Assembly: GCA_000004985.1 (NCBI GenBank)
Contig: GG738850.1
DNA from: Naegleria gruberi
Taxonomy: Eukaryota
DNA: 64,000 bases
Strand: one strand, 5' to 3'
The notes beneath the pieces are model-generated. The model made no database searches, was not told where the DNA came from, and was given only the letters and a program-made list of their open reading frames with translations. A program made the position numbers and the translations under genes. Positions 457 to 63,077 of the stretch are shown in pieces (within the stretch, counting starts at the first letter, position 1; the number at the start of each line of letters is the position of its first letter).

Positions 457-602
457 ACAATAAAACAGGATTGTTTATTTTTACTTTCTCGAAGTAATAT
501 GATTTTGATTCATTTAATCTTACATTTAGCACTATGATTTATAGTGTTAATGCTGATGCAGAACCTGTTCAAAATTGTAATTTAAATAATTTGAATGTGA
601 AG

Positions 603-686
603 TAGGGGTTCCCGAGTGGTCAAAGGGGGTAGACTCAAGTTCTACTGCGCAAGCTTCGTGGGTTCAAATCCCACCTTCTGCAAATT
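603..686 (+). tRNA. tRNA-Leu(CAA)-like element; anticodon loop ctCAAgt, long variable arm and T-loop GGTTCAAATCC present, but the 5' acceptor strand gtagggg does not pair with the 3' strand cttctgc
   Basis: Hand-folded: D-stem ccc/ggg, anticodon stem gtaga/tctac, T-stem gtggg/cccac; acceptor stem mismatched, so possibly a pseudogene or a misread on my part. Confidence 0.4.
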
Positions 687-1275: not shown

Positions 1276-2446
1276 ATGATGATAATTAGCTGTTCATGTA
1301 ATTTGATTATTGACAGGAATCCGATAATCACTCCTGGAATGCCAAAAGTTTTGGCAGATAGATTACGATATCTAGAATCCATTAAAAAAGCCAAAGGTAT
1401 TAAAATTGCTAATGGATCAAAAGCAGCAACTAACGAATTTCCATTTATGGTATCTCTTCAGTATCAAGCAAGTAGTTCGAGCGTTCCTTATCATTTCTGT
1501 GGTGGATCAATTATTAATAAGCGATATATCATGACAGCAGGTAAGTTTTGATATGACTTTTGACATTTTTAACATTGTGAACTAGCTCACTGCATGTTCG
1601 ATGACACTAATGTAAAATTGACACCTTCTACCATTGTGGTTCTTGCAGGAGTCAACTATAACACCATTTCTACATCAAGTTTATCTGGAAATTACGCAAA
1701 AGGCAGCTCAATTACAGTTCATACAAGTTTCAGCTCGAAAACACTTGCAAATGACATTGCAATTATTTATTTAGATAGAGATTTGACAATTGATGGAACA
1801 ACTACACGTCTGGCTTACATTGAATCAGGTTCAGTTCCAATCCCAACTGCATCCTCAAAGATTCTCGTAGCTGGTTGGGGTTACACTGACTCAACTGAGG
1901 TTGCTTCTGAAAATTTGTTAAAAGTTAATATTCCAATTGTTTCTGATACGATCTGTAATTCATATCCATTGAGTTTGGATATGGCTAAACCAAGACAAAT
2001 ATGTGCTGGTGATGGTGCTGGTCACGATTCTTGTAAGTTGTTGATTTTTACAAAATTTAATTGTAAAATATTTTGAATTTATTACAATTATTGGAAATTG
2101 TTGGAAAATAGGTAGTGGTGATTCAGGAGGTCCATTGTTTAGAGTAGTCAATTCAAACACCAAGGACTTTGCAGTTGTTGGATTGGTAAGCTACGGACCT
2201 GATGGTTGTGGAACTGGATACGAAACTAACAGAGGTGTCTATACGAATACTACCTATTATTTGAATTCGTTTATTAGAAGTGTTGTTTCATCGGTTCAAA
2301 CTGATACCTACAATTCAAATTCAAGCTATGTCTATACCGGAACAAGTGGTGGTTCAACCAAATCTGATGCAAGTTTAGGATTTGATTTGAAGAGTTTCGT
2401 ATTTATTGTTGTAATGTGTTTGGGAATGATCTTTTATGCCTTGTAA
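1276..2446 (+). CDS. Trypsin/chymotrypsin-family (S1) serine protease, 3 exons (about 1276..1540, 1596..2042, 2112..2446); introns 1541..1595 and 2043..2111
   Basis: Catalytic triad contexts TAAHC (His, spans intron 1), DIAII (Asp), DSC|SGDSGGPL (Ser, spans intron 2); GTAAGT donors and TAG acceptors keep frame; true 5' end or signal-peptide exon not resolved. Confidence 0.85.
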
Positions 2447-2515: not shown

Positions 2516-3703
2516 TCAAAGTTCATCATGTGAATGCTTGTTGGAATAATCAGTTGATGGAGCATGAAAATGATTACCATTTTGGAATTGAGATAATTTA
2601 GTGGCACCTATGAGAATTGGATCGTCAATGGAGTGTAAAATATTCTTACCGAATTGATGTTCGATAATTGAAGAAATTGTTGGAAAGGAACATGTCGAAT
2701 TGAAAAGGATAATGTGATCTATTTGAGAGGGAGGATAGGATTCCATAATCTTGTGGAGATCTTGTTTGAAAATATCGAGTAATGGAGAGGAAACTTCAAT
2801 ATATTCTTCCAAGGTAATTTCCTTGAGTAATTTGCTATTCGAAAGGTCAGTTTCATGATCAAATATTTGGACTGGTTGTTTCTTAGCTAGTTTACATCTC
2901 AATTGCTTTGGATCTATTTTCAAATCAATTCCTCCAGGCCAATATCTTTCGAATAAGGAATCGAATTCATTCCATCCTATTCTTGGATCTGACTTTTCGA
3001 GTAATTTCTTTAATTTTTCATTAGAAAAATCCCAAACACCAACTTGCAACTCATAACTATTCCAATTCATTATCAAAATCTTTGAATTCTCCTCAGGAAT
3101 CAAATCATATCCTTTTATAGCTAAACTTTCCTCATCCACCAAATCAACTTGTAAATCCTTTGGCGCCAAATCCAATATTTTCCTTCTTTGTTGCTTGGAA
3201 AGTTGACTTGGAATAGAAATTATCATTCTCTCAACAGTTTCCTTCAGAAATTCTTCTGAACTTTCTTTCAACTTTTCGAATACTAAAATGGAAAATGCTT
3301 CAATCGGATCCAACAACTCAGTCGAACCATTATTAAACTTTAACTCCACAATTGGATTACCAGAATGATCTTGGATAATTTTACTTGGATAATCATCTAT
3401 AAAATCTGTTGGTAATTCATCAAATTTGTGCTCTAAAAGAAATCTGATTTGGTCAACTCTGTTTGAGTGTTGAAGATTTGCTTGTTCTCCAAACATAATT
3501 TCTCCATTTTCCATAATTGCAATAGAAGTATCCACTCTGTCATGTCCATTTGTGGTAATTCTGAAAAACATATCATGCTTGATGGTTGCAATGGAAATAA
3601 ATTCGTGAGTGAAATGAATTCCAACGCTCGCTTGATGAGAATGCAAAACAAGGGAAAGGATGAAAAATAGAAATATTAGCACCGCTGGTTGAATGGTTTT
3701 CAT
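2516..3703 (-). CDS. Signal-peptide-bearing, HDEL-terminated Hsp70-superfamily protein consisting only of a nucleotide-binding domain, with degenerate phosphate-binding motifs (STCH/HSPA13-like architecture)
   Basis: N-terminal hydrophobic signal MKTIQPAVLIFLFFILSLVLHS; VGIHFTHEFISIAT aligns to Hsp70 VGIDLGTTYSCVGV; IISIPSQLSKQQRRKILDLA aligns to VTVPAYFNDSQRQATKDAG; C-terminus ...HSHDEL. Confidence 0.6.
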   Translation of the reverse strand: MKTIQPAVLIFLFFILSLVLHSHQASVGIHFTHEFISIATIKHDMFFRITTNGHDRVDTSIAIMENGEIMFGEQANLQHSNRVDQIRFLLEHKFDELPTDFIDDYPSKIIQDHSGNPIVELKFNNGSTELLDPIEAFSILVFEKLKESSEEFLKETVERMIISIPSQLSKQQRRKILDLAPKDLQVDLVDEESLAIKGYDLIPEENSKILIMNWNSYELQVGVWDFSNEKLKKLLEKSDPRIGWNEFDSLFERYWPGGIDLKIDPKQLRCKLAKKQPVQIFDHETDLSNSKLLKEITLEEYIEVSSPLLDIFKQDLHKIMESYPPSQIDHIILFNSTCSFPTISSIIEHQFGKNILHSIDDPILIGATKLSQFQNGNHFHAPSTDYSNKHSHDEL

Positions 3704-3918
3704 TTTTTTTTTAAATATTATTTAGAATTTGTTGGAAGACTTTTTTGGAAACTTGCCAAAAATAGTGGATTATTTAAGTTTCGGTAGTTTCGTCCAAGAT
3801 TAAGGTTAGATGGAGAAAGTGAAGATATTTAAGCCAACAATTTAAGGCGAAACGTGATCAAGTCATAACTTTTTTTATTGACATCTCGTGTCAACTTGTT
3901 CATCACGTTTCTAAAAAA

Positions 3919-4891
3919 AATGGCAGAAAATACACTGGTTTTATGTGAAGAAGACTATTCTTTAACTAAACAACAATTTGCTGAAAATGAATTCGAAGAA
4001 ACAAATTTAAATTGTGAACAGAAACTAGACGAAAGTGATGATGATCAGTATATGGCTCATTCACCCAATACTAAACCAACAACAGAAACAAAATTGGAAG
4101 ATATCGCTGTAGGTGATGTTGAAAATTCCAACCATTTTCGTGTGAAAGCACGATCATTATCAATAACATCAATAGTTGCAGTGATAATAATCATGGGATT
4201 GGTATTTATTCGAATCGAGAATGAAAAAAACACTACTCATGTCAACAACTTGTTGGAAGAAGCCAGAAACGAAATTTCCAAATTAAAACACGATATGAAG
4301 ATGACACTGGAGGAAAAGAACAACCTTAAAGAACAATTTTACAAAGTGGCTCTCCAGGTTTTACATTTAGAACAGAAAGAACAAGAATCGTCCGTAAAGC
4401 TTTCGTCTATTCAAAAGCAAAACGAGAAAATCATTTCAACCTTGGAAGAACAACCCAAATCAGACTTGATAAATGGTTCAGATTTGAAGAGACAGCTTTC
4501 TGCGTTCCAAGAATCAATTATCAAATTCGAAAAGATAATCGAAGAAAAGAATGAGGAAATTCAAAACTTGAACTTTGAAATCTCTAAAAATTCAATTGCT
4601 ATTGAAAAATTGACTGATAGTAATATAGGTTTAAAGAAGGAAATTGTAAATCTGCCCCAACTCTCGCTGAAGAAGGAAGAATTAATTGAAGAAAATCAAG
4701 TCAAAGAAATGCATTATGAAAGCCTAAACGAACCGAATGCAGTTGATGATTTATCAAATAATGTTGAAGAAGAACATTTATTGTCACCACTACTGGTCAT
4801 ATTCTTTAGGGTTATTGAAATACTTGTTTTTACTTTTTTTGTCTTGATAGTTGGGTGCATATGTATTTTTGTTATGAGTATTAAAAAATAA
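3919..4891 (+). CDS. Coiled-coil protein with C-terminal transmembrane segment (tail-anchored-like); one earlier hydrophobic stretch
   Basis: ATG at 3919 (tracked ORF begins upstream at a non-ATG codon); heptad-like E/K/L-rich middle; C-terminal VIFFRVIEILVFTFFVLIVGCICIFVM. Confidence 0.5.
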
Positions 4892-4909: not shown

Positions 4910-7900
4910 TTACAACTTTCTAATACCTAATGGATCTGGATCTGGATTTACCAAACTTCCGCACGATGAAACACCACCAAAGTATTTACATTGAGAAACA
5001 GTCATGGTTCTTACTCTGGTTTCAGCTGTTGCTGGTGCTCCAACAAATCTCATATTATCCATCAAGAATTCAATGAAATTAGTTTGATCTGGCAAGTACA
5101 AGATAATTCTGTGAATGTTTTGAATTGGTGCAAAACCAAGTTCAGAAAGTGGAATTCTCACACGAGTCACTGTATTTCCATCAATCTTTAAATATTGAGT
5201 GTGATTAGCTTGTGTAGTGATCTTGGAAAAGTCAACAACCTTTGTAACATTCAAATAACCAAATACAATTGTCAAACTTGGAACACTTCCAGTATTATTG
5301 ACAGTCTTGATAAAGAATTCAAAATATTGATAAATACTGGTATCTACATAAATCTTATTGGAACCAATCTTGTTGAATGAAATATTTCCCTTTCTGAAAC
5401 CAAAATGCATTGATGAGTTTCCACAAATAGCTGGTGCATAACTAGCATTAACAAATGTATTTCTAATATCAGCTGGAACATAGGCATACATGGACCATTC
5501 ATTGGTCAATTTTGGACCTTCACTATAAATTGAAATAACATGGGAAGAATTCTTCAAATTTAAAGCATCACACGGTTTAACATTTGAAACCAAAGGTGGT
5601 AAATTACAACTTGTTGATGTAGCATTGTTAATATAGAGTTGAGCTCTCAAATGTCCATTTGGATTTTGAGTAGTTGATAATTTCACAAACATTTTACCTT
5701 GGAGTAAATAATTCCATTCATCATATGATAAGGCATATCCAAATCTGCTTTGAGTATATGGAATAATCTTTGAGGTTGGTGTGGCAATATAATCTTCCTT
5801 TCCTGCAAGTCCAAATCCAATATCAATTGATGTGACAATAGCATTCAAATTGTGTTGAACAGTAAAATCAAGAGAAGCTGTTTTGGAATTCAAGAATGCA
5901 AAAACGTAACCACCTCCACTTGTTGAATTGGCAGCCAATGATTTCACACTTGCTTGTTGGCATGTTTCCAATCTTCCAACAAATCTATCTTCTCTCATTA
6001 ATGTCTTATATGTTGTTCCTGCATTGCTTGGATTGGAGAATTTTGATGGTGCACAAATACCTCTTGGACATGTGGCATTCAAATAAACAACACCATATGA
6101 GTAGTAATCAACAAAGCTATCAACAACTCTGTATGATGTTCTAGAAGCTTGATTTTGGATCTTCAAGTACAAATGTTCAGTAGCATCATCATAATAGTAG
6201 TAATTCTTAGGTTCACTCAACATGGTTGTAAAGTTTGCAGTTCTGGTCATGTTAATTGTTGTTGGATTCATGAAGAATCTAATGTTGAAAATTGTTCCTT
6301 TTGGATATTGAACAGCAACAACAATCCAATCATTTGCAGCGCTTGCATCAAGGAAGAAACTCAAATCTTTTGGTGTTGGAATGTCGTATGGCCAACGAAG
6401 CCCATAGAAACCTCTTGCTACCAAATTACTTTGCATATAAAAGTCACCACTGGAGCTTAATGCACCAATAACATTGGATTGGCGATTTCTCAATAAATCA
6501 ACAAGAATCATTCTTGGAACTCTCTTTCCTGAATTGATAATATCAGGTCTACTAATACCATCACTTCCAGTTGTGTTAACACTTGTTAAATTCCAATTCA
6601 AAACACGGAATTGAGCAAAAGATTCACCAAAGAATGGACATTGATAGGCATTCCATTCAGTTCTTGCTTGACATTGTGTGAATGTCATGGTTGTGTCATT
6701 ACCAGTAATCCAACCACCAATTGATGAAATACTTGTGATTGAGCCGTCTACATCCATCAAAGCAGTGGCCTTGTGATTCTCATAATAAGTTGGATGATTC
6801 CAAGGGAAAACCATATATCTGTTTGCATTAACAAACTTTAAATTGGCATATCTATTTCTGGATTGATGTTTAAAGTAATTATTCAATGAAGATAAGGAAC
6901 CTGCATATTTGAATGAATCAGTAACAAAGTTAATAAAAGTGATATTTCTCAAATATTGTGGACCACCATTATCATAAGTTTCATAACCCTTAATCAAATC
7001 CAAATTGGAACTAATATATTGACCTGGTCTTGTTCTATTTCCAAGATCAATCTTTGGTCTGTATGAAAATTCACCAACATTTTCAGATTCACCAATAAAA
7101 GTACTATCATGAATGATACTTGGTCCTGGTGGAGAATTCATGGCAATTCTATTATCAGTTAAGAATAAATTTTTGAAACGAAGTAAACCACCACGTGCCC
7201 AAACACCATATCCTCTATTCTTATAAGCAATAAATCCATTGTAAAGTGCTTCAACAACACCTGAAGGATAATAACCAGCAAGTTCTGTACTTCCATCAGC
7301 TTTTTCCATATCATCAATGTGAAGAGCATTTCCTGATGAACTGTGACCAACATTGTTTTCAAATGGTTTTGGAGGAGCAGTTCTTGGATTAATAGAGCCA
7401 GCTGCGTATCTGTTTGCACTCAATCCAGTTGGGAATGTTGGCATTGTAAACCAAAATGGGAAACGACCACCAACTGCATGATTTCCAATGAATGTATTAT
7501 TTGGATTAGTAATCCAAAAAACTGAAACATCAGAATCAGATAAAATGATTTGACGAGGATTTTCTCTTGAGATTGGAATTGGATCAACTCCCAAATTATT
7601 GTTAAATTCATTTCCTACTTCAGATCCATCTTCCAAGAAGTACATATGACCAAAAGCACGATAACAAACATTATTCTTCAATAAAATATAATTAGTATCG
7701 TGAACAACATAACATCTTTGGAAACTGTGATGAACTGTATTATCCTTAACTGTGAAATTCAATCCAAATGGTTTGTTTTGTAACAAGTGGAAATGGAAAC
7801 TATTAATGAATAATAAGTAATAGTTAAATAAATCATTAAAAACAATATTAAATACAAGTTAAATAAAAATGATTACCAACACCAAACATACCTATATCTT

Positions 7901-8895
7901 CCCATTAAACCTTGTTGACCAAATCTTGTAATTTCAACACCTTCCATATTAAATTTATCAACCAAACGAATAATAAAGTGACCACCAAAAAGTGAACTTT
8001 CAGATGAATCATCACCTCTGAAAACAATTCTTCTTGTTAATAAACCAACTTCTGCACGAATCTTTCCATCAACACTTGCAAAGTGAGTATAATTCAATGC
8101 TCTATCTAAAATAATGGTCTTGTTTCCATTCAATAATTGAATAATCTTTCTCTCTTCATTTTGATTTGGAAATCGTTCACCACGAATCCAACCCAATGAA
8201 GCATTCTTTTCAACTCTGTAATCATATAATTCACCATAATCTGTTGAAGCAATAACAATTGAATCACCAACTCTCCATTGAACAGCTTCTTTCAATTCAA
8301 GTTGTGAACTTCCTTTGGTGGAATTCTTGATAATTTCACTCCAACTTGGACCATCAACTTTACCATAAATTTGAACAATAGATCCACTCAAAAAAGCAAC
8401 ACCTTTAGAACCCAATTTACTTCCATCGAATGGATCACTACCAATGTCATTGATAGAACTATTGACACGATCACCATACAATGTCAAGATAACTTTTGAA
8501 GTGATTGGACAATTTGAACTACCCATAATAAAACTACCATTTGATTCAACTCTAATGAAATTCAAATTCAAATTGAGATCAATATTATCAAAAATTAAAG
8601 AACCACCTGATTTAACAGTGATTGAACGTAATTTGTTTGGAGGAGAAATATTTAACTTGACAGCTTTTGTAATAACAATATCATAATTGGCAACATTCCA
8701 ACCAGTTAATGTGTTAAAATTGACCAAACCAACTTGTTGATGAGGACATTGACCTTCCACAATAATACTTTCAATCAATACACACAATAAAATTGTGCTA
8801 ATTAATGAAAGAATTACTCTTGTACTACAATGTTTGTTGTAATACATATTGTTTGTTTTTTTCAAAGTGAGAAATAAAGTGTCTCTTCCATTCAC
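4910..8895 (-). CDS. G8-domain protein of the CEMIP/TMEM2 (KIAA1199) family, 2 exons: complement(join(4910..7800,7892..8895)), intron 7801..7891
   Basis: Exon 1 has signal/anchor (ILSLISTILLCVLIES) then G8 domain (GWNVANYDIVITKAVKL...GGSLIFD...SNGSFIMGSSNCP...LTLYG); family motif GQQGLMGRY|SFHFH straddles a GTATGT...AATAG intron; downstream right-handed beta-helix-like Gly/Asn-rich repeats. Confidence 0.75.
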
Positions 8896-9831: not shown

Positions 9832-11274
9832 ATGACATTATCTTCAGCAGCAGAAACATCAGCAACATTAGAAATTTCTGGTAATTTGATTAAAAATTCA
9901 TCGGAATATGTGAGGGAAATGATAAATAATTTCGGAAGCACCAACAAGACAACACAACTATGTTCTATTGGTGGTGGATTATTGGGAAGTTTATTCATGT
10001 TAAGGTGGATTGTTGGAGTTTCTAAAAAGTCAAAGGAAAAGAAGAAGGAAATTGAAAGGATTTTCAAGGAAATTCAACAAGATTGTAGACAACAAGTCAA
10101 TGAATTGGTCAAGAAGGAAAATGTCTTGTCAAAGAAACAGAAAATTGGTGTCTTGATTGTTAATTTGGGAACTCCTTCACAAGCCACTCATCATTATGTT
10201 TACAGATATTTGTCTCAATTTTTAATGGATGGTCGTGTGATTGATGTGAGCTACTTGTTGAGATTTTTATTGGTGAGAGGAATTATTGTTCCATTCAGAT
10301 ATAAGAGATCGACTCGATTCTATCAAGAAATTTGGAAGAATAAGGATTATTCAAATTCAGAATGTTCTCCACTCAAATATAATACCACTAGTTTGGTTTC
10401 TAAAGTGAGTGAAAATTTGAAAGGATTGAATGATGACAATTGTGAATTCCAAGTGGAAATGGCCATGAGATATCAAGAACCTTCAATTGAAAGTGGTTTG
10501 AAAAAGCTTGAAGGTTGTGCACATATTGTAGTGGTGCCACTCTTCCCACAATATGCAAGTGCAACCACTGGATCTACTCATGAAGAATGCATGCGTGTTG
10601 TAATGAAATGGTTGACTATTCCAAGTTTACATTTTAATAGTACATTCAATTTGATGGACATGTTTATCAAATCCAATGTGAAGAGAATTCAAGAAGCTCT
10701 TCAAAGAACCAAGACTGAAAGAGAAAATCAACCATTCGATCACCTCCTTCTCACTTATCACAGTCTTCCAGTTCGTCATGTCACTCAAGAATTCCAAGAA
10801 AAGAAGAGTTTACAATATTCCTACTATCAACAATCCTTTGAGACTAGTGTTGCAATTTTGAAAGAATTATTCAACTGCACAGCAGAAGAATTAATCCAAG
10901 ATGAAACCAATGTTGGATGGTTTACTTACAAGAGAAGTCAATCTGATTCAAGTGATGACTATTCCTCCAATTTCACACCAACTCTCCAAATTTCCACATG
11001 TTTCCAAAGCAGATTAGGTAAGGAACCTTGGCTTGAACCTTACACCTCAAAAACTCTTGGACTCTTGGCAAAACAATCAAGTCGTGTCCTCATTGCTTGT
11101 CCATCATTCACTTCTGATTGCATTGAAACAGATCACGAATTGGAAATTGAGGAAAAGGAAGAATTCTACTTGAAGGGAGGTAAATACATGGCTGTTGCTC
11201 GATGTGTCAACGATGATGACCTATTTGCCAATGGATTGACTGATTTAATTGCTAAATATAAACAAGTTTTGTAA
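9832..11274 (+). CDS. hemH: Ferrochelatase (protoheme ferro-lyase) with N-terminal extension (probable organellar targeting/anchor)
   Basis: LIVNLGTP (cf. LNMGGP), VVVPLFPQYASATTGS (cf. YPQYSCSTTGS), LLTYHSLP (catalytic His context), C-terminal Cys cluster ACPSFTSDC. Confidence 0.85.
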   Translation: MTLSSAAETSATLEISGNLIKNSSEYVREMINNFGSTNKTTQLCSIGGGLLGSLFMLRWIVGVSKKSKEKKKEIERIFKEIQQDCRQQVNELVKKENVLSKKQKIGVLIVNLGTPSQATHHYVYRYLSQFLMDGRVIDVSYLLRFLLVRGIIVPFRYKRSTRFYQEIWKNKDYSNSECSPLKYNTTSLVSKVSENLKGLNDDNCEFQVEMAMRYQEPSIESGLKKLEGCAHIVVVPLFPQYASATTGSTHEECMRVVMKWLTIPSLHFNSTFNLMDMFIKSNVKRIQEALQRTKTERENQPFDHLLLTYHSLPVRHVTQEFQEKKSLQYSYYQQSFETSVAILKELFNCTAEELIQDETNVGWFTYKRSQSDSSDDYSSNFTPTLQISTCFQSRLGKEPWLEPYTSKTLGLLAKQSSRVLIACPSFTSDCIETDHELEIEEKEEFYLKGGKYMAVARCVNDDDLFANGLTDLIAKYKQVL

Positions 11275-11595
11275 GCTTTATAACTCATTCGAACATTTTT
11301 TACAAAAAGTGAAGGTAACCAGTCCACAATAATCAGTTTCATTTCAAATTCAACTTTGAATCAAATAATTTAGCTTTCATTTTCAAATTTAAAGCAATGA
11401 AAATTTTTCAAATTCAGAAATGAAAAAAATCAACAAACAACAACTAGCTAACGCTTCTCATCATACGAGAGCGAATTACAATAATTTTAAATAATATTAT
11501 TGGTTATTATCAACTAATAGTGTATAATAGTGTACAACAGATACGTTTAAATTTGTTAATTATTATTAATTTCGAAAAAGCTGTAATTTAACAAG

Positions 11596-12978
11596 ATGGG
11601 CAAGAAATCAAACTCTTCATCATCAGGCTCCTCCAGCAATTCTACTATTGGCTCTGTTCTTGGTATTTCCTTCTCCTCGGCACGTAATTCCTCTTCAAAA
11701 CCTCCACGAGAAATTATTCCTGCTCAAGAATACTATGAAAACATTCTCAAGTATACTTCCTCCACTTCAGAGGATGAATTAATTCAAGCCTTGAATAAGT
11801 ACTTGTTCAAAGCCTCTGATTTGTACTTTTATTATTATGAATTTAGTGGATGGAGGGATTTTACCAATGTAAGAAGAGCCTTCCATAAGATGGTGCAGAT
11901 GCAAACTTTCCTTTCACTATTGAGAGGAAAATACTATGTAGAAGTTACTAATAACAACAATAATAGTAGTAGTAGTAATAGTAATAATACTTCTTCAAGT
12001 AATCAGGAAGCAATTAATAATGAAGAAGCACCATCAGTAGAGAGTAAAGTCGTCCATATCGATTTTAATGCTCTGAAGAAGTCTCTCAAGTCTACACAGA
12101 GGATTGATTGTTCTTCACTTTCTGCAATTTCTAATATGGGAAAACCATCTGTGAAATCTTCCTCTAAATCTTCATCATCATCATCAGACTCTAAGAATAA
12201 TCGTGGAACAATCTTTCAAGTGGTGGAATCGGATTGTCTTGATGCAGCTGTTGCCTTAAAGACCAAACTCAAGTTGAATCCACTCATGTTGGTGAATGGA
12301 AGTTTGTCTCATCCTGGTGGAGGTTATTTGCAAGGTTCTTTTGCACAGGAAGAAGATATGTGCAGGAGATCTTCATTAGCTCTCTCATTGGATGATCCTT
12401 TCAAGATGGATGATGGTAGATCATGGTCCTATCCTTTACCAGAATTTGGAGGTGCTTATGTAGGTGATTGTTTTGTTATTAGAAAATCAGCCAAGGATGG
12501 TTATCAATTTTTGGAGAGTATTGTAAATATTTCAATGTTATCTATGGCTGCTTATGCTAATCCACCTGTGGAAAATCGAGTAATTGGAAAGGATGAGAAT
12601 GGAAAGGATATTGTGGAATGCTTTTTAGATTCAAAGCTCACATTAAGTATGAAAAAGAAGATTTCATCCTTTATTGAGATTGCTCTTCAAAAAGGTCACG
12701 ATTCTTTGGTGATTAGTGCAATTGGAGCAGGTGCTTATTCGAATCCAACATTTCACATTGCTACTCTCTTCAAAGAAGTTCTCTCCAGTGAAAATTACAA
12801 GGACAAATTTAAGATTGTTCTCTTCTCTATCATTAACGATAAGAATGCTGCCAATAATGTGAAGAATATGTATGGCACCTCACAGAAAACTAATCTTTCA
12901 ATCTTTTCCAATGTTATTCACTCTAAAGAACCTCATCTCCTTCCAACATTGGAAGAATTCATCCAACAACAAAAGTAA
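11596..12978 (+). CDS. Macrodomain protein of the bacterial-type poly(ADP-ribose) glycohydrolase family (DUF2263/TIGR02452-like) with Ser-rich N-terminus and poly-N/S inserts
   Basis: PARG signature GGGYLQGSFAQEEDMCRRSSL (GGG-x6-8-QEE, CRR[ST]); remaining sequence low complexity. Confidence 0.6.
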   Translation: MGKKSNSSSSGSSSNSTIGSVLGISFSSARNSSSKPPREIIPAQEYYENILKYTSSTSEDELIQALNKYLFKASDLYFYYYEFSGWRDFTNVRRAFHKMVQMQTFLSLLRGKYYVEVTNNNNNSSSSNSNNTSSSNQEAINNEEAPSVESKVVHIDFNALKKSLKSTQRIDCSSLSAISNMGKPSVKSSSKSSSSSSDSKNNRGTIFQVVESDCLDAAVALKTKLKLNPLMLVNGSLSHPGGGYLQGSFAQEEDMCRRSSLALSLDDPFKMDDGRSWSYPLPEFGGAYVGDCFVIRKSAKDGYQFLESIVNISMLSMAAYANPPVENRVIGKDENGKDIVECFLDSKLTLSMKKKISSFIEIALQKGHDSLVISAIGAGAYSNPTFHIATLFKEVLSSENYKDKFKIVLFSIINDKNAANNVKNMYGTSQKTNLSIFSNVIHSKEPHLLPTLEEFIQQQK

Positions 12979-17251: not shown

Positions 17252-18430
17252 TTATTCCTCGTTCTCTTCTTCTTCGTCTTCTTCGTCTTCCTCGTCTTCA
17301 TCACTTGTGTTATCTTCTTGTGTTTGTCCAACATTGATTTCTTCATCAAATTCCTCTTCCTCTTCTTTAGTTTCATGAGGCGTTCTTAAAGAATTGGTAA
17401 GTAACACATCCAATTCCTTCAAATCACTATTATTCTTCAAAATTCTTCTACTTTTCAATAGAGAAGTGGTGATTGCCTTTCCATATGGATACGACAATTT
17501 AGTAATCTTGCAATTTGGGAATAAATATTTCAGAACTATTGCCATTGCCTTGTCGGCTTTCAATTTAAGGAATGAGCAGTCAAATTCCACTTTCTGAACA
17601 ATATATTGATCAGCATTCTCTTCCTCTTCTGAATTCTCCATAACAGAAATAGTCACTGATTTTAATTGTTTGGAATATCTTGTCACAATCTTGTATATTT
17701 GACTAATATTCACACAGAAAGCATCTGGATGGAACATTATCCTACCAAAATTAGGACTACAACTGAAAATAACATCCAACGATCCATAGACATTTAGTGG
17801 TCCATTCTCAGAATATCCATAAGTGGCATAAGAGAAATTCTCAATTACTTCCAACTCAGTCAATGCCAACTTTTCTTCACATCCACATTCTAAATCTGCA
17901 AAATCAAACACTCTCAACACCTCCAAGCTCGGTATCTTTTTCACAATCTTCCAAACTTGGTCAGAAAACACATATCCATAATACAAGTACTTGAGCTTTT
18001 TGAAATACTTTTCAATAAATGGCAAAAAGTAATAATCATCCATAAGCGGAATCCTCAATCTTTCCACTCTATTCAATTTACTCAAATTTTCATCATCTTC
18101 CTCTTCATCAGGAACAAACTCCCTCGCAAATTTCAAACTCCTCACCAAGGACATATTCGGAATGGCACGTTTCAATGGATACCTGACAATCACATCATTA
18201 AAACACTCACTCTCCGGATCAACCATTACTTCATGAAACATTTTCGAAACATGAACCAAATTGCAAACTCTCGTCTCCTTCGGAACAAATTGCAAAATAT
18301 GAATCAAGATTTCCCGAGGAATCTTTTCGATGAAATTATTAAATATGACGAGGTTTTCATCGTCATCTTCATTTGCTTTTGATTTTTTCCTCTTATTCGT
18401 TGGATTTGTTGTGCTTTCACGTTTTTTCAT
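17252..18430 (-). CDS. F-box-like protein with acidic E/D-rich C-terminal tail; tandem paralog of the next gene
   Basis: N-terminal PREILIHILQFVP...VCNLVHVSKMFHEVM (F-box-like); shares blocks YSYATYGY[SD]ENGPLN, FDCSFL, KAMAIVLKYLFPNC with the 18563..19684 gene. Confidence 0.55.
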   Translation of the reverse strand: MKKRESTTNPTNKRKKSKANEDDDENLVIFNNFIEKIPREILIHILQFVPKETRVCNLVHVSKMFHEVMVDPESECFNDVIVRYPLKRAIPNMSLVRSLKFAREFVPDEEEDDENLSKLNRVERLRIPLMDDYYFLPFIEKYFKKLKYLYYGYVFSDQVWKIVKKIPSLEVLRVFDFADLECGCEEKLALTELEVIENFSYATYGYSENGPLNVYGSLDVIFSCSPNFGRIMFHPDAFCVNISQIYKIVTRYSKQLKSVTISVMENSEEEENADQYIVQKVEFDCSFLKLKADKAMAIVLKYLFPNCKITKLSYPYGKAITTSLLKSRRILKNNSDLKELDVLLTNSLRTPHETKEEEEEFDEEINVGQTQEDNTSDEDEEDEEDEEEENEE

Positions 18431-18562
18431 TTTTTTTTATTTTTTTTTTGAAATAAATTTTGGCGGGAAATTGATTTTGTAACGGAATTACCCTTAATCA
18501 TTGTTATTGTTGGAATTGGAGATTGTACAATGACAGAATAAAGATTTGAGAAATATTCAAAG

Positions 18563-19684
18563 TTAGAGTCCATCATCTTCTCCATCTTCATCATATTCTT
18601 CCTCTTCCTCATCATCCTCCTCTTCATCATCATCTTGATCGTCTTCATCTTCTGCAGCTTTGACGAGTAGATTTTCCAAAATTTGCAAATCATTCTCATG
18701 TTTCAAGATCTTTCTCTTTTCCAAAAGTTCTCTTGTAATTTTCTTTCCTTTTATGCTAGATTCCAAAATTGTAATTTCACAATTTGGAAATAAATATTTG
18801 AGAACAATTGCCATACTCTTGTTGGCTCTCACCGCGAGGAATGAACAATCGAAATCTATTTTTTGAACTTGATTTGGTTCAGAATCTGTATTAGGATCGA
18901 CATCTTCCAAAATGGAAAGAGTTATCAATTCCAATTGTTTCCAATGATCTGTAATAATCTTGTATAATAAACTTAAATTGATATAGAAAGAATCAGCATG
19001 GAATTGAATTCTTTCCAATTTAGGACAAGATTTGAATATACTTTGCACTGTTTTGTTAAAATTCAATGGTCCATTTTCATCATATCCATAAGTGGCATAT
19101 GAATAATCCATAACGACTTCCAAATCAGTCAAATTTAAATTTGCATTTTCAAATTCTGATTCTTCCAAATCTACAACCTTTAACACTTGCAAATTTGGTA
19201 ATTTCTGTAAAAGTTTCCATAATTCATCATTAAGTATTTGTCCAAAAAATAAATATTTTAAATTTGAAAAATAATTTTCTATAATTGGCAAGTATTCGAA
19301 ATCTTCTTGAAGTGGAATGTATAATTTTTCAATATTTAGTTTTTTTAAAGCTGCAAAATGTTTCTTTTCAACAAGAAAATTCTTTTTCATTTCCAAACAT
19401 TTCACAAGTGAAAAATTAGGAATTTTGTATTCGAAAGGAAACAAGACTAAAGTTTGATCAAAGAAACTGTTTTGTGGATTGTAGATTATTTGATGGAAAT
19501 TCTTGGAAACAAAAACCAAAGAATTTGTTAACGTTTCGGAAGGAACAAGACGAAATATTTCTATTAAAATTTCTTGTGGCACAGTTTCGAATAATTTTGG
19601 ATCAAACTTGATGAGCGGTTCATCATCATGGTTCAGTTTGGCTTTTTTAGAGGATTTTACATTATTTGCATTGTTTCGTTTCAT
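18563..19684 (-). CDS. F-box-like protein, paralog of 17252..18430, acidic C-terminus
   Basis: VPQEILIEIFRLVP...LVFVSKNFHQII; same conserved blocks; about 35-nt near-identical nucleotide stretch in both genes (caatttggg/aaataaatattt...attgccat). Confidence 0.55.
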   Translation of the reverse strand: MKRNNANNVKSSKKAKLNHDDEPLIKFDPKLFETVPQEILIEIFRLVPSETLTNSLVFVSKNFHQIIYNPQNSFFDQTLVLFPFEYKIPNFSLVKCLEMKKNFLVEKKHFAALKKLNIEKLYIPLQEDFEYLPIIENYFSNLKYLFFGQILNDELWKLLQKLPNLQVLKVVDLEESEFENANLNLTDLEVVMDYSYATYGYDENGPLNFNKTVQSIFKSCPKLERIQFHADSFYINLSLLYKIITDHWKQLELITLSILEDVDPNTDSEPNQVQKIDFDCSFLAVRANKSMAIVLKYLFPNCEITILESSIKGKKITRELLEKRKILKHENDLQILENLLVKAAEDEDDQDDDEEEDDEEEEEYDEDGEDDGL

Positions 19685-21548: not shown

Positions 21549-24500
21549 TTAAATAACGAACAAAATACAACCCAAAACAAAAATTAACACTGCTTTCGTA
21601 ACATTGCAAGAGGTAGCTGCCAATGAAACTGTTGGTATGATAATCTTTGGTAATTCAACAGTAACTCTTTCAATTGAAGTTCCATCGGCTGCAAATGTGG
21701 AAATTGAAGCAACTGGTGTTGAGCTAGTTCCAGAATTAACCTTAACTTTCATTGTGATGGTGTAACTTGCTGGTGAGAGAGTTTGACCGAGAGTTGCATT
21801 CAATTTGTTGGAGGCATCAACATTCATTGAAGTAAATTGAATGACAATACCTTTTGAATCTGTTATAATGAAATTATCTGAAAGTGCACGTTTACTTTCA
21901 GATGTAAGTGTGAATGCTGCAGGAAGTGACATGACCAATGAACCTCCCATTGGAATTGGCTTTGTAATCACCATGGCTGTCTTGACACTCACCATTCCAC
22001 CAACAGGAACATAGGCAGTAGTACTTGTTTGTGGAGTAACAGGATTAATTGGATTGGTAGAATTATTGTTTGTAGAATTTGTGTTGGAGGTGTTATTGGC
22101 AATGGTTGAATTGTTGGTGGATGTACCATTGTTAACTACTGGATTAGTGGATGAATTAGTGGAATTGTTTCCATTATTGTTAATGACATTGTTGTTTGGA
22201 TTTGTGGAATTTGAATTGGTAGTATTGGAAGTGGATGTGTTGTTTCCATTCATTGAATTATTTCCACCAGAATCTGTTGTATTAGTTGTTGATGTATTAT
22301 TTGTTACAATAGAACTGTTACTATTTGTGGAGGAATTATCAACATTTGTACCATTACTAATAATTGAGTTATTTCCACTTGTTGTATTATCAACATTAGT
22401 ATTGTTACCATTGTTAACATTTGTATTATTACTGGCATTGGTATTATTGCTAGATGTAGTAGAATTGTCTACATTTGTGCTATTATTTCCATTGTTAACG
22501 TTAGTATTGTTATTGATGTTAGTGTTATTGCTGTTAGTAGTAGAATTATCAATATTTGTATTGTTATTATTATTAACATTAGTATTATTACTATTTGTGG
22601 AGGAATTATCCACATTAGTATTATTATTATTAGCATTGGTAGAATTATCAAAGTTAGTGTTATTATTACTACTACTTGTTGAATTATCAACATTAGTAGC
22701 ATTATTATTAAGACCTGGATCAGTATTATTATTCGAAGGAGAATCATTGACTGAAGATACAGTAAAAGTACCAGTGCTCTTAACAGTTAATATATAACTA
22801 CCACTGGATTGATCTTGTGTTGCAGTGCAGGTATCATCTGCAACATAATCACCAACAGAATCGTCCCATTTCAAACATTGATAAGTGGTTGTTGAAATTG
22901 TTCTCAATCCACGCAATTTTCTTGTAGAGCTACTGATTGAGGAATCAATTTGTAACTCGGCAATGCTTTCGGTATGATTCACATTCAATGCTTGATTCAA
23001 GTGTGAAATGACAAATTCAACAGCATTGGCCAATGCCTTGGAACAATTTGGTTTGAAAACATTAAGAGTAATATCAACTGAATCAGTAACATTGGACAAA
23101 GTTTGTAATAGATTGAACTTTTCACTCAATTTGAAACCATTTTTACCAGATATAGTTTCATTCAATCCATTTAAGAACGACTTGGTAACCTTTCTTCCGT
23201 AGGCCTTAACATCCTTATTAAGTAAAATAGTGGCTGGCATATCTGGAACCTTTTGATTTGAAGCAATATTGACCAATGAAGTATAAACTTGTTTAAGTTT
23301 TTCAGTTGGTTTCTCAGTTTTCAATTTTGAAGGTAAAATAGATCTGACACTTGAAGTAGTAAACAAAGTATCAGCTACTTGTTGAGTTTGTGTAAGAGTT
23401 TCATCAGATACTGGAATTGAACTATCCAGAGCTGTTGTTGTAGTTGAAATTAAAGTATCAGCAATTAAATTTGAAGTGTTTGATGACATCATGTCCATAT
23501 TTTCAGTTGCAATATCCAAAATAGTTGCTGTTGAAGCAACAAGAGATTCGGTTGGACTAGTAATAGATGCTTCTTGTTGAGTATTATTCAACATGGTGTT
23601 AATAACTGAATCAGCAACTTGAGCCAATTCTTGTTGAACCGTTTCACTGTCATTTGATTGAGAGTAATTAGCATTGGCAATGGATTGAATTAAAGCAGCA
23701 CCATCTGAAACTGGAATATTACTTTGATCAGCAATAGCATTTGCAGTTGCAACAGTTTCGTCCAAAGTTGCCTCGGTAACATTTACAGTTGTAATGGCAC
23801 TCGAAGAAGCACCCATTGCATCATAGACAGTTACTGATACTTCATTCACACCTACGATACCCAACTTTAATGAATAGAAACTAGTCTCAGAACGTGACGA
23901 AACAATGGTCCTTACTGAATTGGAATTTGGACCTCTTGTACTAAATTCATAAGTTAATGGAAGTTGCGCATCAGTCCAACCATTACCACATGAAACCTTA
24001 AAATCTGTCAATAGGGAAACACCAGAGCTTGGCTCAACGAGTAATTCACCAACTGTTGGTGGTGAGTTCACAGTGAAGAACACTTCAGCAGTACCTTCTT
24101 TATCGATAGTTGTGTTTCCAATAATAACAGTATCCTTAATGGTAATCTTCATTTCATTGGAGCTACCTGGAGTTAATAATTTTGATGGAATGATAATGTA
24201 TGCCTTTGTTACTTCCACACCAGTTAAATCAATCGATGAAGATTCCCATAAGAATGATTTGGAATCACTGAGTACAACTGGTTGAATTAACAATGCTCTC
24301 AAAACCAAATCCTTTGATGGATTGACAACTGATAAATCAACGCCGTCCATAGGCATAATTGACGAGGTAATAACAGTGTCCTTTGAAATTTCCAAAACGG
24401 TAACCTTAAGAGAATCAGTAGCAGTTCTGTTTTGCTTTCTATAAGTAACAGTGAAAAGATAGGAACCAGGATCCATTAATTGACTCATTTTCATGGTATT

Positions 24501-27500: not shown

Positions 27501-28032
27501 CTTGTTGAACACTTTTGCACAGGTAGCTCTGGAACACCCGACTTTGGTGGAAGCTGCTGAGACAACTTGAATATAATGTTGGCAATCACCACTCTTTAAA
27601 CATAAGCTTCCTTAATTGTAAATCATAAACACTTACAGAACAATAATTATTTGTAAAGTCATATTTAGAAGATTCTAAAGTCCATTCATTCACAATATCC
27701 ACCACTGACATATTTCCCTTCATACTGACATGAATATTTACGCCCAAATTGAGAGAATTACTTGATGGTCCTGCAGCACATTTAGTAAGCCAAGAAGCTG
27801 CCCTAGATGCCAATTCATCACTCCATTCCAAGGCTGCTAACTTGTTAAGTGGAGTCGGAGCCACTGATAAACGTGCGGAATTGTGGGCATTCAAAATGGC
27901 TGTCTTTTCTGAAGAAGTTAATTCCGCAGCCCTTACTTGTTGTTGTTGATTCATCATCAACATGGATACAACCAAAAGCATCACCAACACAAGGCTAACT
28001 TTGTGATGATGGTGCGGATAAATGATGTTCAT
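21549..28032 (-). CDS. Giant (about 2120 aa) secreted/membrane protein: signal peptide + CAP (SCP/PR-1) domain + about 20 EGF-like Cys repeats + REJ/PKD-like module + N/S/T-rich linker + C-terminal hydrophobic tail; complement(join(21549..27593,27637..28032)), 43-nt intron 27594..27636
   Basis: CAP motifs spread over both exons (AILNAHNSARL, LEWSDELASRAASW, then after intron QHYIQVVSAASTKVGCS...LIVCNYSPKPN); GTAAGT...AAAG intron is phase 0; tracked 'start' at 27512 is GTG; C-terminus ...AVLIFVLGCILFVI (TM or GPI signal). Confidence 0.75.
22060..22760 (-). repeat. Coding low-complexity array: degenerate repeats of (N-N-[ST]-N/T-N-V-D-N-S-T) inside the giant CAP-EGF gene
   Basis: Direct repeats of gttaataatg / attattact-type units on the + strand; translate to NNNTNVDNSTT... 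on the minus strand. Confidence 0.6.
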
Positions 28033-62600: not shown

Positions 62601-63077
62601 TACTCCGTAATGATGAATGTGTTGGGAGTAGATGGATTTGAGTGCTGAATTATTTACAACTCCAATCCTGTTGCCAATCAATTGGCTATTATCCAAACTT
62701 CTTCTCATATTATTATTGTTAATTATATTTAAATTATTTAAAGTTTTGGAGGGTGGATCCTCTCCACTACTACTACTCATCGATTGTTGTTGTTGTTGAA
62801 TGAGAAGTGTGGATGGAAGTTTGGGCGAAGAGGGTGAATTGTTATTTGTATTAGAAAATTGTTGCTGTTGTGATTGTAAAATTCTGGGTGATGACGATGA
62901 CTGAGAAGAAACTCTCGGAGAAGATGTACCTGAATTATTGTTCATCATTTCCTTCTCAAAATTGCTGTGAAAATCTTCACAATGGTTTGTTTTCAATTTT
63001 TTGGTTGTTGTCCAACAACTGAAAATTTGGTCACAACTCTGAGATGAGAATTGGTTTTGGTTAGTACTTGATTCCAC
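59685..63077 (-). CDS. SLC6/NSS-family Na+-coupled transporter, 2 exons: complement(join(59685..61084,61157..63077)); long His/Gln/Ser-rich N-terminal cytoplasmic extension
   Basis: TM1 signature GSSVGLGDLIRFPYLVYTYGGGGFLIPYIFCLVVLGLPLTLLEFSLGV (cf. [22 protein letters not shown]); GTAAGT...AACAG 72-nt intron, phase 1, links ...DKFGEN|ALADFDKLF; the first ATG is well inside the tracked ORF, whose own start codon is GTG. Confidence 0.8.

What the first reader, a model, noticed from the sequence alone, without database searches (positions are those of the whole stretch)
2516..3703. ER-retained, NBD-only Hsp70 relative with degenerate ATP-binding motifs (candidate pseudo-chaperone)
The protein has a signal peptide and a C-terminal HDEL. 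It aligns along the Hsp70 nucleotide-binding domain (VGIHFTHEF...TSIAIMENGEIMFGEQA...RMIISIPSQLSKQQRRKILDLA). The phosphate-1 loop DLGTT[YN]S is replaced by HFTHEFI, and there is no substrate-binding domain. This resembles STCH/HSPA13 (NBD-only, microsomal), but with the catalytic loops lost. The product is probably non-catalytic, perhaps a regulator or co-factor of ER Hsp70 (BiP).
Basis: partly seen in the sequence, partly recalled or inferred. Interest (0 to 1): 0.6.

Follow-up and report, generated by a model that had tools for sequence, protein, structure and literature searches.

The report
ER-retained dead Hsp70 ATPase-domain protein
A single-exon gene of the amoeba Naegleria gruberi encodes an ER-targeted protein that keeps the fold of the Hsp70 chaperone's ATPase domain but has lost nearly every ATP-binding residue and the whole client-binding half, so it is a lineage-specific "pseudo-chaperone" of unknown role rather than a working Hsp70.

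Summary
Window 2516-3703 (-) is an intact 395-codon ORF, identical to N. gruberi NEG-M "predicted protein" NAEGRDRAFT_63429 (XP_002681546.1, D2V3N4). It has a hydrophobic N-terminal signal-like segment, an Hsp70 nucleotide-binding-domain (NBD) match (PF00012, 46.5 bits, E=2e-12), no linker or substrate-binding domain, and a C-terminal HDEL.

All three nucleotide loops are destroyed, lobe IIB is about 19 residues shorter, and the J-domain-contact Arg is Asp. Only 23 of 55 family-conserved columns survive, against at least 38 in each of 74 other Hsp70s.

An exhaustive search of 1.84 billion proteins found one relative, a 98% identical environmental Naegleria strain. dN/dS against it is 0.21, with no indels in the coding sequence.

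It is not an HSPA13/STCH orthologue. It has no special affinity to BiP profiles.

Best reading: a fast-evolving, still constrained, ER-lumenal, nucleotide-independent protein built on the Hsp70 NBD scaffold. Its partner is unknown, and the BiP-cofactor idea is untested.

It is a new variant of a known kind, of moderate interest.

The parts
2516..3703 (-). Complete single-exon CDS (395 codons plus TGA). It is N. gruberi NAEGRDRAFT_63429 / XP_002681546.1 / UniProt D2V3N4.
   Evidence: ORF list and sequence. Exact-sequence look-up.
3629..3703 (-). N-terminal signal-like segment, aa 1-25 (MKTIQ + PAVLIFLFFILSLVL + HSHQA). It lies upstream of the first NBD beta-strand.
   Evidence: Hydropathy scan. 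It aligns with the signal peptide of a BiP (P0002) and lies outside the NBD in the alignments. No signal-peptide predictor was available, so the cleavage site is an inference.
2582..3628 (-). Hsp70 nucleotide-binding-domain-like fold, aa 26-374, with lobes IA, IB, IIA and a shortened IIB.
   Evidence: Pfam PF00012. PDB phmmer. AF2 with MSA gives pLDDT 88.2 and pTM 0.85. Foldseek top hits are mortalin, BiP and Hsc70 NBDs at TM about 0.75, E about 1e-25.
3596..3622 (-). Degenerate phosphate-1 loop, aa 28-36: GIHFTHEFI in place of GIDLGTTYS. Changes are D10->H30, G12->T32, T13->H33, T14->E34, Y15->F35.
3443..3445 (-). Codon for R87, which stands in the place of the catalytic Lys (Hsc70 K71).
   Evidence: 88% of 74 Hsp70s have K here; 4 have R.
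3041..3079 (-). Degenerate phosphate-2 loop, aa 209-221: ILIMNWNSYELQV in place of VLIFDLGGGTFDV. Changes are D199->N213, G201-203->N215/S216/Y217, T204->E218, D206->Q220.
   Evidence: PDB alignments..
2681..2713 (-). Degenerate adenosine motif, aa 331-341: IILFNSTCSFP in place of IVLVGGSTRIP. Changes are G338/G339/S340/T341/R342 -> N335/S336/T337/C338/S339. This creates an N-x-T sequon (N335-S-T).
2819..2953 (-). Shortened lobe IIB region, about aa 251-295. Hsc70 residues 244-249, 259-261, 265-266 and 287-290 have no counterpart. The adenine/ribose contacts E268, R272 and S275 are replaced by K271, K275 and V278.
   Evidence: AF2 confidence dips here (pLDDT 69-82).
2519..2581 (-). C-terminal tail, aa 375-395 (NGNHFHAPSTDYSNKHSHDEL). 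It is predicted disordered and ends in the ER-retrieval tetrapeptide HDEL (nt 2519-2530). There is no interdomain linker and no substrate-binding domain.
   Evidence: Sequence. pLDDT is below 50 for aa 382-395. N. gruberi uses canonical K/HDEL signals and has a canonical KDEL receptor (PMC10903960).

Best explanation
This is a real N. gruberi gene that is still under selection. Its product enters the ER through an N-terminal signal sequence and is kept there by HDEL/ERD2 retrieval.

The protein folds like an Hsp70 nucleotide-binding domain but cannot bind or hydrolyse ATP in the Hsp70 manner. It has no client-binding domain, so it cannot run a chaperone cycle.

It arose by duplication of a eukaryotic-type Hsp70, followed by loss of the linker and substrate-binding domain and very fast divergence within the Naegleria lineage.

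It most likely acts as a nucleotide-independent binding or scaffold protein in the ER lumen. The most plausible setting is the BiP/translocon machinery, by analogy with NBD-only HSPA13. The partner is unknown.

What is shown:
- gene integrity;
- NBD homology and predicted fold;
- loss of the motifs;
- absence of the substrate-binding domain;
- the HDEL ending;
- narrow distribution;
- dN/dS below 1.

What is inferred:
- ER-lumenal residence;
- lack of ATP binding;
- a binding or regulatory role.
For: **Gene integrity and identity**
- The 395-codon ORF is identical to XP_002681546.1.

**Homology and fold**
- PF00012 scores 46.5 bits, E=2e-12.
- PDB phmmer hits are only Hsp70 NBDs.
- AF2 with an MSA gives pLDDT 88.2. 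Foldseek gives TM about 0.75 to BiP, mortalin and Hsc70 NBDs.

**Dead active site**
- Only 8 of 36 functionally annotated Hsc70 positions are kept.
- All of D10, G12, T13, T14, K71, D199, G201-203, T204, D206, G230, E268, R272, S275 and G338-R342 are changed. The reference sequence was verified identical to PDB 1HPM.
- 23 of 55 family-conserved columns are kept, against at least 38 in all 74 comparison Hsp70s.
- An independent BiP-profile alignment gives the same loop correspondences.

**ER targeting**
- The N-terminal segment is hydrophobic.
- The protein ends in HDEL.
- N. gruberi calreticulin ends in HDEL; Grp94, PDI and Grp170 end in KDEL. Naegleria has a canonical KDEL receptor. D2V3N4 is itself tabulated among N. 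gruberi xDEL Hsp70s (PMC10903960).

**Selection**
- Against a 98% identical environmental strain there are 8 synonymous and 7 non-synonymous changes. dN/dS is 0.21, with binomial p=0.004 for an excess of synonymous changes.
- There are no indels in 1188 coding bases, against 3 in 425 flanking bases.
- Ferrochelatase from the same pair of strains gives dN/dS 0.08.

**Precedent for ATPase-independent action**
- ATPase-dead HSPA13 mutants still affect ER import, and do so more strongly than the wild type (PMC9691929).
Against: - No expression, localisation or biochemical data were found.
- The selection test rests on only 15 substitutions between two near-identical strains.
- No orthologue in any other species allows a test of surface conservation.
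- Known Hsp70 partner surfaces are not kept: the J-domain Arg is lost and lobe IIB is shortened. This weakens the specific BiP-system hypothesis.
- The confident AF2 model depends on an alignment made of Hsp70s. The single-sequence model was poor, with pLDDT 44.5. The structural evidence is therefore not independent of the sequence homology.
- E175, K271 and D366 equivalents survive, and K71 is conservatively Arg. Some non-canonical ligand binding cannot be excluded.
Confidence: 0.7

Rival explanations
1. It is a decaying relic. A duplicated, truncated ER Hsp70 lost its function and is drifting. The ORF, signal peptide and HDEL are simply not yet destroyed.
For: - Divergence is extreme: 21.8% identity to Hsc70.
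- No orthologue exists outside the N. gruberi complex in 1.84 billion proteins.
- dN is about four times that of ferrochelatase in the same strain pair.
- One of the seven replacements in the sister strain hits a conserved Ala (A75P).
Against: - Divergence to about 22% identity implies long evolution. Over that time an unconstrained 395-codon frame in 33% GC DNA would have acquired stops or frameshifts, with a chance of staying open of about 1e-13.
- dN/dS is 0.21 (p=0.004), and there are no indels in the coding sequence while the flanks have three.
- The structural core residues of the NBD are selectively kept: G72, A75, P133, K146, E150, P165, Q172, R173, E191, Y199, G243, K274, P341, F351, G366. 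The catalytic ones are selectively lost.
- Both targeting signals are intact.
Confidence: 0.15
2. It is still a nucleotide-binding, possibly slow, ATPase that uses non-canonical residues. This would resemble atypical Hsp70s that bind ATP without a normal cycle.
For: - The E175 equivalent (E191), K271 (K274) and D366 (D360) are kept, and K71 is replaced conservatively by Arg.
- The overall two-lobe cleft architecture is predicted to be retained.
Against: - All glycines of the phosphate-1, phosphate-2 and adenosine loops are replaced, several by bulky residues: G12->T32, G201-203->N215/S216/Y217, G230->W244, G338-339->N335/S336. L200 is also W214.
- Both Mg/phosphate-coordinating Asp residues (D10, D199) and both Thr residues (T13, T204) are lost.
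- The ribose/adenine contacts E268, R272 and S275 are changed.
- No comparison Hsp70 among 74 is nearly as depleted.
Confidence: 0.07
3. It is the Naegleria orthologue of HSPA13/STCH, the metazoan NBD-only microsomal Hsp70.
For: The gross architecture is the same: N-terminal signal, an NBD only, and an ER setting.
Against: - 104 HSPA13 sequences all keep GIDLGTTYC, DLGGGTLD and VGGSTRIP.
- They end in xNFN, not K/HDEL.
- They carry an insertion of about 40 aa in lobe IIB, where this protein has deletions.
- The HSPA13 profile scores 31.2 bits against 30.9 for a BiP profile, and the pairwise score of 32.8 bits is the lowest of five references.
- HSPA13 is described as conserved across Eumetazoa and as an active ATPase (PMC9691929).
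Confidence: 0.03

Closest known systems
HSPA13 / STCH (metazoan NBD-only, ER/microsomal Hsp70)
   Same: - Both have an N-terminal signal sequence, consist of an Hsp70 NBD without a substrate-binding domain, and act in the ER.
- HSPA13 shows that an NBD-only ER Hsp70 can act at the translocon. ATPase-dead mutants keep, and even strengthen, the effect (PMC9691929).
   Different: - HSPA13 is an active ATPase with all motifs intact.
- It is about 39% identical to BiP, whereas this protein is about 22% identical to Hsc70.
- It has a large lobe IIB insertion and no K/HDEL.
- There is no sign of orthology.
BiP / GRP78 / HSPA5 (canonical ER Hsp70)
   Same: - Both have a signal peptide plus a C-terminal K/HDEL and a eukaryotic-type NBD.
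- A published supplementary table lists D2V3N4 under 'Hsp70 (BIP family)', with two other N. gruberi xDEL Hsp70s.
- The best PDB hit is annotated only 'Chaperone DnaK' (5umb, 52 bits), which I recall from memory to be a Plasmodium BiP NBD. Human BiP NBDs follow at 43 bits.
   Different: - This protein has no linker, substrate-binding domain or lid.
- All nucleotide loops are lost.
- The J-domain-contact Arg is lost.
- The BiP-specific profile scores only 30.9 bits, lower than the generic Pfam HSP70 model at 46.5 bits.
Atypical secretory-pathway Hsp70-like proteins of other protists (Tetrahymena XP_012654978.1 'heat shock-binding protein 70, ER luminal protein'; a 426-aa NBD-only Cavostelium transcript)
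   Same: - These give the highest pairwise scores to the query among labelled references: 61.4 and 64.7 bits, against 37-38 for BiP.
- They have a signal peptide and partly degenerate motifs, for example FHLGG with the catalytic Asp replaced.
- The Cavostelium protein is also NBD-only.
   Different: - They keep most glycine-loop residues (DFGTTYS, HLGGxT, GGSTRIP).
- They share no meaningful set of derived residues with the query.
- The higher scores may reflect shared composition or divergence rather than common descent.
Hsp110 / Grp170 (Hsp70-superfamily nucleotide-exchange factors that act by NBD-NBD contact)
   Same: They are a precedent for an Hsp70-fold NBD working as a binding partner of another Hsp70 rather than as a foldase (established knowledge). 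ER Grp170-like proteins with KDEL appear among weak hits.
   Different: - Hsp110 and Grp170 bind ATP and have large substrate-binding domains.
- The query is closer to classical Hsp70s. The 60 best PDB hits listed are all classical Hsp70s (DnaK, BiP, Ssb1, Hsc70).
- The query lacks the lobe IIB length that such contacts use.

Membership tests
Hsp70 superfamily (Pfam PF00012) | Significant match to the family profile above the curated threshold | tested here: met
   46.5 bits against a gathering score of 20.6, E=2.1e-12, covering profile positions 28-369. All PDB sequence hits are Hsp70 NBDs.
Hsp70 superfamily (Pfam PF00012) | Actin-like two-lobe NBD fold | tested here: met
   AF2 with MSA gives pLDDT 88.2 and pTM 0.85. 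Foldseek gives TM about 0.75, E about 1e-25, to BiP, mortalin and Hsc70 NBDs. Caveat: the model depends on an Hsp70 alignment, and the single-sequence model was poor.
Hsp70 superfamily (Pfam PF00012) | Phosphate-1 (DLGTT), phosphate-2 (DLGGGT.D) and adenosine (GGSTRIP) motifs, and the catalytic K71 | tested here: not met
   The motifs read HFTHE, NWNSYELQ and NSTCSFP, and K71 is R87. 23 of 55 conserved columns are kept, against at least 38 in the other Hsp70s.
Hsp70 superfamily (Pfam PF00012) | Interdomain linker plus substrate-binding domain and lid | tested here: not met
   The ORF ends 22 residues after the NBD. The Pfam match stops at profile position 369 of 599. The next gene is 70 bp downstream.
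BiP / HSPA5 | ER targeting: N-terminal signal sequence and C-terminal K/HDEL | tested here: met
   Hydrophobic N-terminus. HDEL ending. HDEL and KDEL are the signals on N. gruberi ER residents. Localisation itself was not tested.
BiP / HSPA5 | Specific sequence affinity to BiP over other Hsp70s | tested here: inconclusive
   A profile of 61 HDEL-bearing BiPs scores 30.9 bits, equal to the HSPA13 profile (31.2) and lower than generic Pfam (46.5). The BiP set was taxonomically narrow. The N. gruberi paralogues D2VYB2 and D2VAK2 could not be fetched.
HSPA13 / STCH | NBD-only architecture with an N-terminal signal sequence | tested here: met
HSPA13 / STCH | Active ATPase with conserved catalytic Lys/Thr (K100, T230) and intact glycine loops | tested here: not met
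   All 104 HSPA13 sequences keep the three motifs. The query has none, with R87 and E218 at the two catalytic sites.
HSPA13 / STCH | Family-specific lobe IIB insertion and conserved xNFN C-terminus, used as orthology signatures | tested here: not met
   The query has deletions where HSPA13 has an insertion of about 40 aa, and it ends in HDEL. The profile score is no better than for BiP.
HSPA13 / STCH | Association with the Sec61 translocon | not testable with these tools
   This requires proximity labelling or co-purification in Naegleria.

The most novel reading that the evidence does not exclude
The Hsp70 ATPase domain has been converted in Naegleria into a pseudoenzyme that works in the ER lumen without nucleotide. 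One possibility is a constitutive modulator of protein import or BiP function, a natural equivalent of the ATPase-dead HSPA13 mutants. Another is a receptor for a new ligand in the remodelled His/Glu/Trp-lined, possibly N-glycosylated, former ATP cleft (H30, H33, E34, W214, Y217, E218, W244, N335-S-T).
Probability: 0.25. Interest if true: 0.6.

Novelty: new variant of a known kind. Interest (0 to 1): 0.4.

Why it matters
Pseudoenzymes are well studied among kinases and phosphatases but hardly at all among Hsp70 chaperones. I found no description of an Hsp70 ATPase domain that has lost essentially its whole nucleotide site and yet is kept as an intact, apparently constrained, ER-targeted gene.

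This protein would be a natural test case for what the NBD scaffold can do without ATP. That speaks directly to the unexplained finding that ATPase-dead HSPA13 acts more strongly on ER import than the wild type.

Its reach is limited. It is confined to one species complex, and there are no functional data. It is also a caution for annotation, because it has been tabulated as a 'BiP family' member on the strength of BLAST plus HDEL.

Tried and rejected
1. **Orthologue hunt.**
   - The word-indexed search, the exhaustive phmmer search over 1.84 billion representatives and the JGI metagenome scan gave only one 98% identical environmental sequence.
   - The top remaining hits come from unrelated taxa: a beetle, Juncus, Histomonas, Papaver, Cavostelium and Tetrahymena. 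They share no derived residues with the query. A hidden subfamily was therefore rejected.
2. **Fetching the two other N. gruberi xDEL Hsp70s (D2VYB2, D2VAK2).**
   - A BiP-seeded search returned only algal and plant BiPs in the 120 rows shown.
   - A literature search found nothing.
3. **Expression evidence.** There was no mention of the gene identifiers in full texts. Nothing was found in the supplements of three Naegleria omics papers, and one of them had no files held.
4. **Single-sequence AF2.** The model was uninformative (pLDDT 44.5).
5. **AFDB Foldseek.** The library was unavailable.
6. **Subfamily origin.** PDB pairwise scores (Plasmodium BiP-type 52, DnaK 41-44, Ssb1 43, human BiP 43, Hsc70 37-39 bits), the NCBIfam hits and the class profiles do not discriminate. 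Only Y15->F35 and Hsc70-like spacing hint at a eukaryotic cytosol/ER-type ancestor.
7. **The 134.5-bit 'diverse Hsp70' profile score.** I do not use it as evidence, because that profile was built from hits selected by the query itself.
Full report
**What is there.** The window is part of a 707-kb scaffold of Naegleria gruberi NEG-M. Six ORFs from the window match deposited N. gruberi proteins residue for residue. The finding's coordinates delimit exactly one minus-strand ORF, 2516-3703, of 395 codons from ATG to TGA. It is identical to EFC48802.1 / XP_002681546.1 / UniProt D2V3N4, annotated only as 'predicted protein' NAEGRDRAFT_63429.

The region is 32-34% GC, like its surroundings. The gene is compact. 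A trypsin-like gene on the other strand ends 70 bp downstream. A divergently transcribed coiled-coil membrane-protein ORF begins about 175 bp upstream. No further exon could supply a substrate-binding domain.

**Homology and fold.** Pfam finds one family above its curated cut-off, HSP70 (PF00012). It scores 46.5 bits against a gathering score of 20.6, E=2.1e-12, with residues 53-368 on profile positions 28-369 of 599. That span is the nucleotide-binding domain (NBD) only.

A phmmer search against all PDB chains returns only Hsp70 NBDs, from E=4.5e-13 down to about 1e-8. They include a Plasmodium BiP-type NBD, human BiP, Ssb1, DnaK and Hsc70.

AlphaFold2 on the single sequence was uninformative (pLDDT 44.5). 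With an alignment of 75 Hsp70s it gave pLDDT 88.2 and pTM 0.85. Foldseek places that model on mortalin, BiP and Hsc70 NBDs at TM about 0.75 and E about 1e-25. The model is conditioned on an Hsp70 alignment, so it corroborates the sequence homology rather than adding independent evidence.

**The nucleotide site is gone.** I aligned the protein to bovine/human Hsc70 residues 1-382. That reference is identical to PDB 1HPM/3HSC.

| Hsc70 element | Hsc70 residue(s) | This protein |
|---|---|---|
| Phosphate-1 loop | GIDLGTTYS | GIHFTHEFI |
| | D10, G12, T13, T14, Y15 | H30, T32, H33, E34, F35 |
| Catalytic Lys | K71 | R87 |
| Phosphate-2 loop | D199, G201, G202, G203, T204, D206 | N213, N215, S216, Y217, E218, Q220 |
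| | G230 | W244 |
| Ribose/adenine contacts | E268, R272, S275 | K271, K275, V278 |
| Adenosine motif | GGSTR (G338-R342) | NSTCS (N335-S339) |

- Of 36 functionally annotated positions, 8 are kept. They include E175, K271 and D366.
- A second MAFFT alignment and an independent profile alignment against 61 BiPs give the same loop correspondences. So do the HMMER alignments to PDB chains for phosphate-2 and the adenosine motif.
- Among 55 columns that are at least 80% conserved in 74 diverse Hsp70s, the protein keeps 23. The most depleted of the other 74 keeps 38.
- The survivors are mostly structural core residues: G72, A75, P133, K146, E150, P165, Q172, R173, Y199, G243, P341, F351, G366. This pattern is what a fold retained without catalysis would show.
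- Overall identity to Hsc70 is 21.8%.
- Lobe IIB is about 19 residues shorter. The Arg that contacts the J-domain HPD motif (Hsc70 R171, DnaK R167; established knowledge) is Asp187.
- The new NST in the former adenosine loop is an N-glycosylation sequon, and there is a second at N125. If these are used in the ER lumen, the cleft would be blocked further. That is my inference.

**ER residence.**
- Residues 4-20 form a strongly hydrophobic stretch after a Lys. This stretch lies upstream of the first NBD strand and aligns with the signal peptide of a BiP.
- The C-terminus is HDEL.
- A published analysis states that Naegleria has a canonical KDEL receptor (D2V4W2) and canonical K/HDEL motifs (PMC10903960).
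- Its S15 Table lists N. gruberi calreticulin ending in HDEL, and Grp94, two PDIs and Grp170 ending in KDEL. D2V3N4 itself (YSNKHSHDEL) appears under 'Hsp70 (BIP family)', next to D2VYB2 (..AQHDEL) and D2VAK2 (..SPKDEL).
- The gene has therefore been noticed as an xDEL Hsp70 homologue. Nothing was said there about its truncation or its dead site.
- A chance [KH]DEL ending has a probability of about 3e-5 per protein (my estimate).
- Localisation remains an inference.

**Distribution.**
- The word-indexed search of 5.8 billion cluster representatives found one relative, a 98% identical protein on a 1.6-kb contig of an ENA metagenome.
- The exhaustive phmmer search of 1.84 billion representatives found the same single relative. 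The next hit drops to 94 bits and 27% identity.
- The ten best remaining hits come from a beetle, Juncus, Histomonas, Papaver, Cavostelium, Tetrahymena and a metagenomic DnaK. They have intact or only mildly altered motifs.
- None shares a meaningful set of derived residues with the query.
- A JGI metagenome scan found nothing.
- Within the limits of annotated proteomes, the gene is confined to the N. gruberi complex.

**Is it alive?**
- Against the environmental strain there are 15 nucleotide differences in 1188 coding bases, 8 synonymous and 7 non-synonymous.
- This gives dS 0.035, dN 0.0074 and dN/dS 0.21, with binomial p=0.004 for an excess of synonymous changes.
- There are no indels in the coding sequence, while 425 bp of flank carry three.
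- Ferrochelatase from the same pair of genomes gives dS 0.021 and dN/dS 0.08. It too has no coding indels, against ten gap openings in its flanks.
- The gene therefore evolves faster than a housekeeping enzyme but is not neutral. The sample is small.
- The stronger argument is that a frame which has diverged to about 22% identity is still open, and both targeting signals are intact.

**Comparison with known families.**
- *HSPA13/STCH* is the obvious analogue. It is NBD-only, ER-associated and acts at Sec61. It is an active ATPase, about 39% identical to BiP, and conserved across Eumetazoa (PMC9691929).
- I retrieved 104 full-length tetrapod HSPA13 sequences. All keep GIDLGTTYC, DLGGGTLD and VGGSTRIP. 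All end in xNFN. All carry an insertion of about 40 residues in lobe IIB, where the Naegleria protein has deletions.
- An HSPA13 profile scores the query at 31.2 bits and a BiP profile at 30.9 bits. The protein is therefore not an HSPA13 orthologue, and its parent subfamily cannot be resolved from these data.
- Y15->F35 and Hsc70-like spacing hint at a eukaryotic cytosol/ER-type ancestor.
- The highest pairwise scores among labelled references are to a Cavostelium NBD-only secretory transcript (64.7 bits) and a Tetrahymena 'ER luminal' Hsp70-like protein (61.4 bits). Both have partly degenerate motifs. This suggests that atypical ER Hsp70 derivatives arise repeatedly in protists, with this one as the extreme case.

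**Mechanism.** I commit to the following reading. The protein is an ER-lumenal, nucleotide-independent protein on the Hsp70 NBD scaffold. It is retained by HDEL retrieval and acts by binding rather than by a chaperone cycle (confidence about 0.7 for this general statement).

The most plausible setting is the BiP/translocon system. NBD-only HSPA13 acts there, and its ATPase-dead mutants are more potent than the wild type. However, the loss of the J-contact Arg and the shortening of lobe IIB argue against simple mimicry of BiP towards J-proteins or exchange factors. I give that specific role about 0.25.

The rivals are:
- a not-yet-disabled relic (0.15);
- residual non-canonical nucleotide binding (0.07);
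- HSPA13 orthology (0.03).

**Verdict.** The gene is a new variant of a known kind: an NBD-only ER Hsp70 derivative that has become a pseudo-ATPase. It is already present in databases but uncharacterised. Interest is moderate, because the combination is unusual and bears on how NBD-only Hsp70s work, but it is restricted to one lineage and no functional evidence exists.

Noticed in passing
window 602-682 (+): A tRNA-Leu(CAA) gene lies just upstream of the trypsin-like gene.
   Followed up: no
window 1276-2446 (+): A trypsin-family serine protease gene (PF00089) is split into three ORF pieces (1276-1551, 1594-2076, 2135-2446), presumably by two short introns. It ends in a hydrophobic tail (SFVFIVVMCLGMIFYAL) suggestive of a GPI anchor or membrane anchor. 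It converges on the pseudo-Hsp70 gene with only 70 bp between the stop codons.
   Followed up: partly
window 3878-4891 (+): A coiled-coil protein with an internal and a C-terminal hydrophobic segment, so tail-anchor-like. It has a weak, sub-threshold KASH_CCD hit (21.9 bits against a cut-off of 43.3). It is divergently transcribed from the pseudo-Hsp70 gene across about 175 bp.
   Followed up: no
window 4910-8895 (-): Two adjacent ORFs carry G8, CEMIP beta-helix, CEMIP domain X and a borderline CHRD match (23.3 bits against a cut-off of 24.1). They are probably one large secreted CEMIP/KIAA1199-like gene with an intron near 7786-7873.
   Followed up: no
window 9832-12978 (+): Ferrochelatase (480 aa, with an N-terminal extension of about 100 aa before the Pfam domain) is followed by a microbial-type PARG-domain protein. 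The ferrochelatase has a near-identical copy in the same ENA metagenome as the pseudo-Hsp70 relative (ERZ929261). That sample therefore contains a N. gruberi-complex strain about 98% identical at the DNA level.
   Followed up: partly
window 17252-19684 (-): Two tandem paralogous ORFs (392 and 373 aa) each have a weak N-terminal F-box-like match.
   Followed up: no
window 21549-27512 (-), 48679-55227 (-), 56102-59674 (+): Three very large ORFs are rich in teneurin-type EGF repeats. Two of them also have a REJ domain, and one also has a PKD-like domain. Together they form a cluster of polycystin-1/REJ-like surface proteins.
   Followed up: no
window 59685-63077 (-): A sodium:neurotransmitter symporter (SNF, PF00209) gene is split into two ORFs, probably by an intron.
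   Followed up: no
proteins P0016, P0018, P0020, P0022 (hits): Several of the best-scoring Hsp70s from other protists have the catalytic Asp of phosphate-2 replaced by His (FHLGG). Some also have signal peptides or are NBD-only. Partial degeneration of secretory-pathway Hsp70 paralogues may be recurrent.
   Followed up: partly
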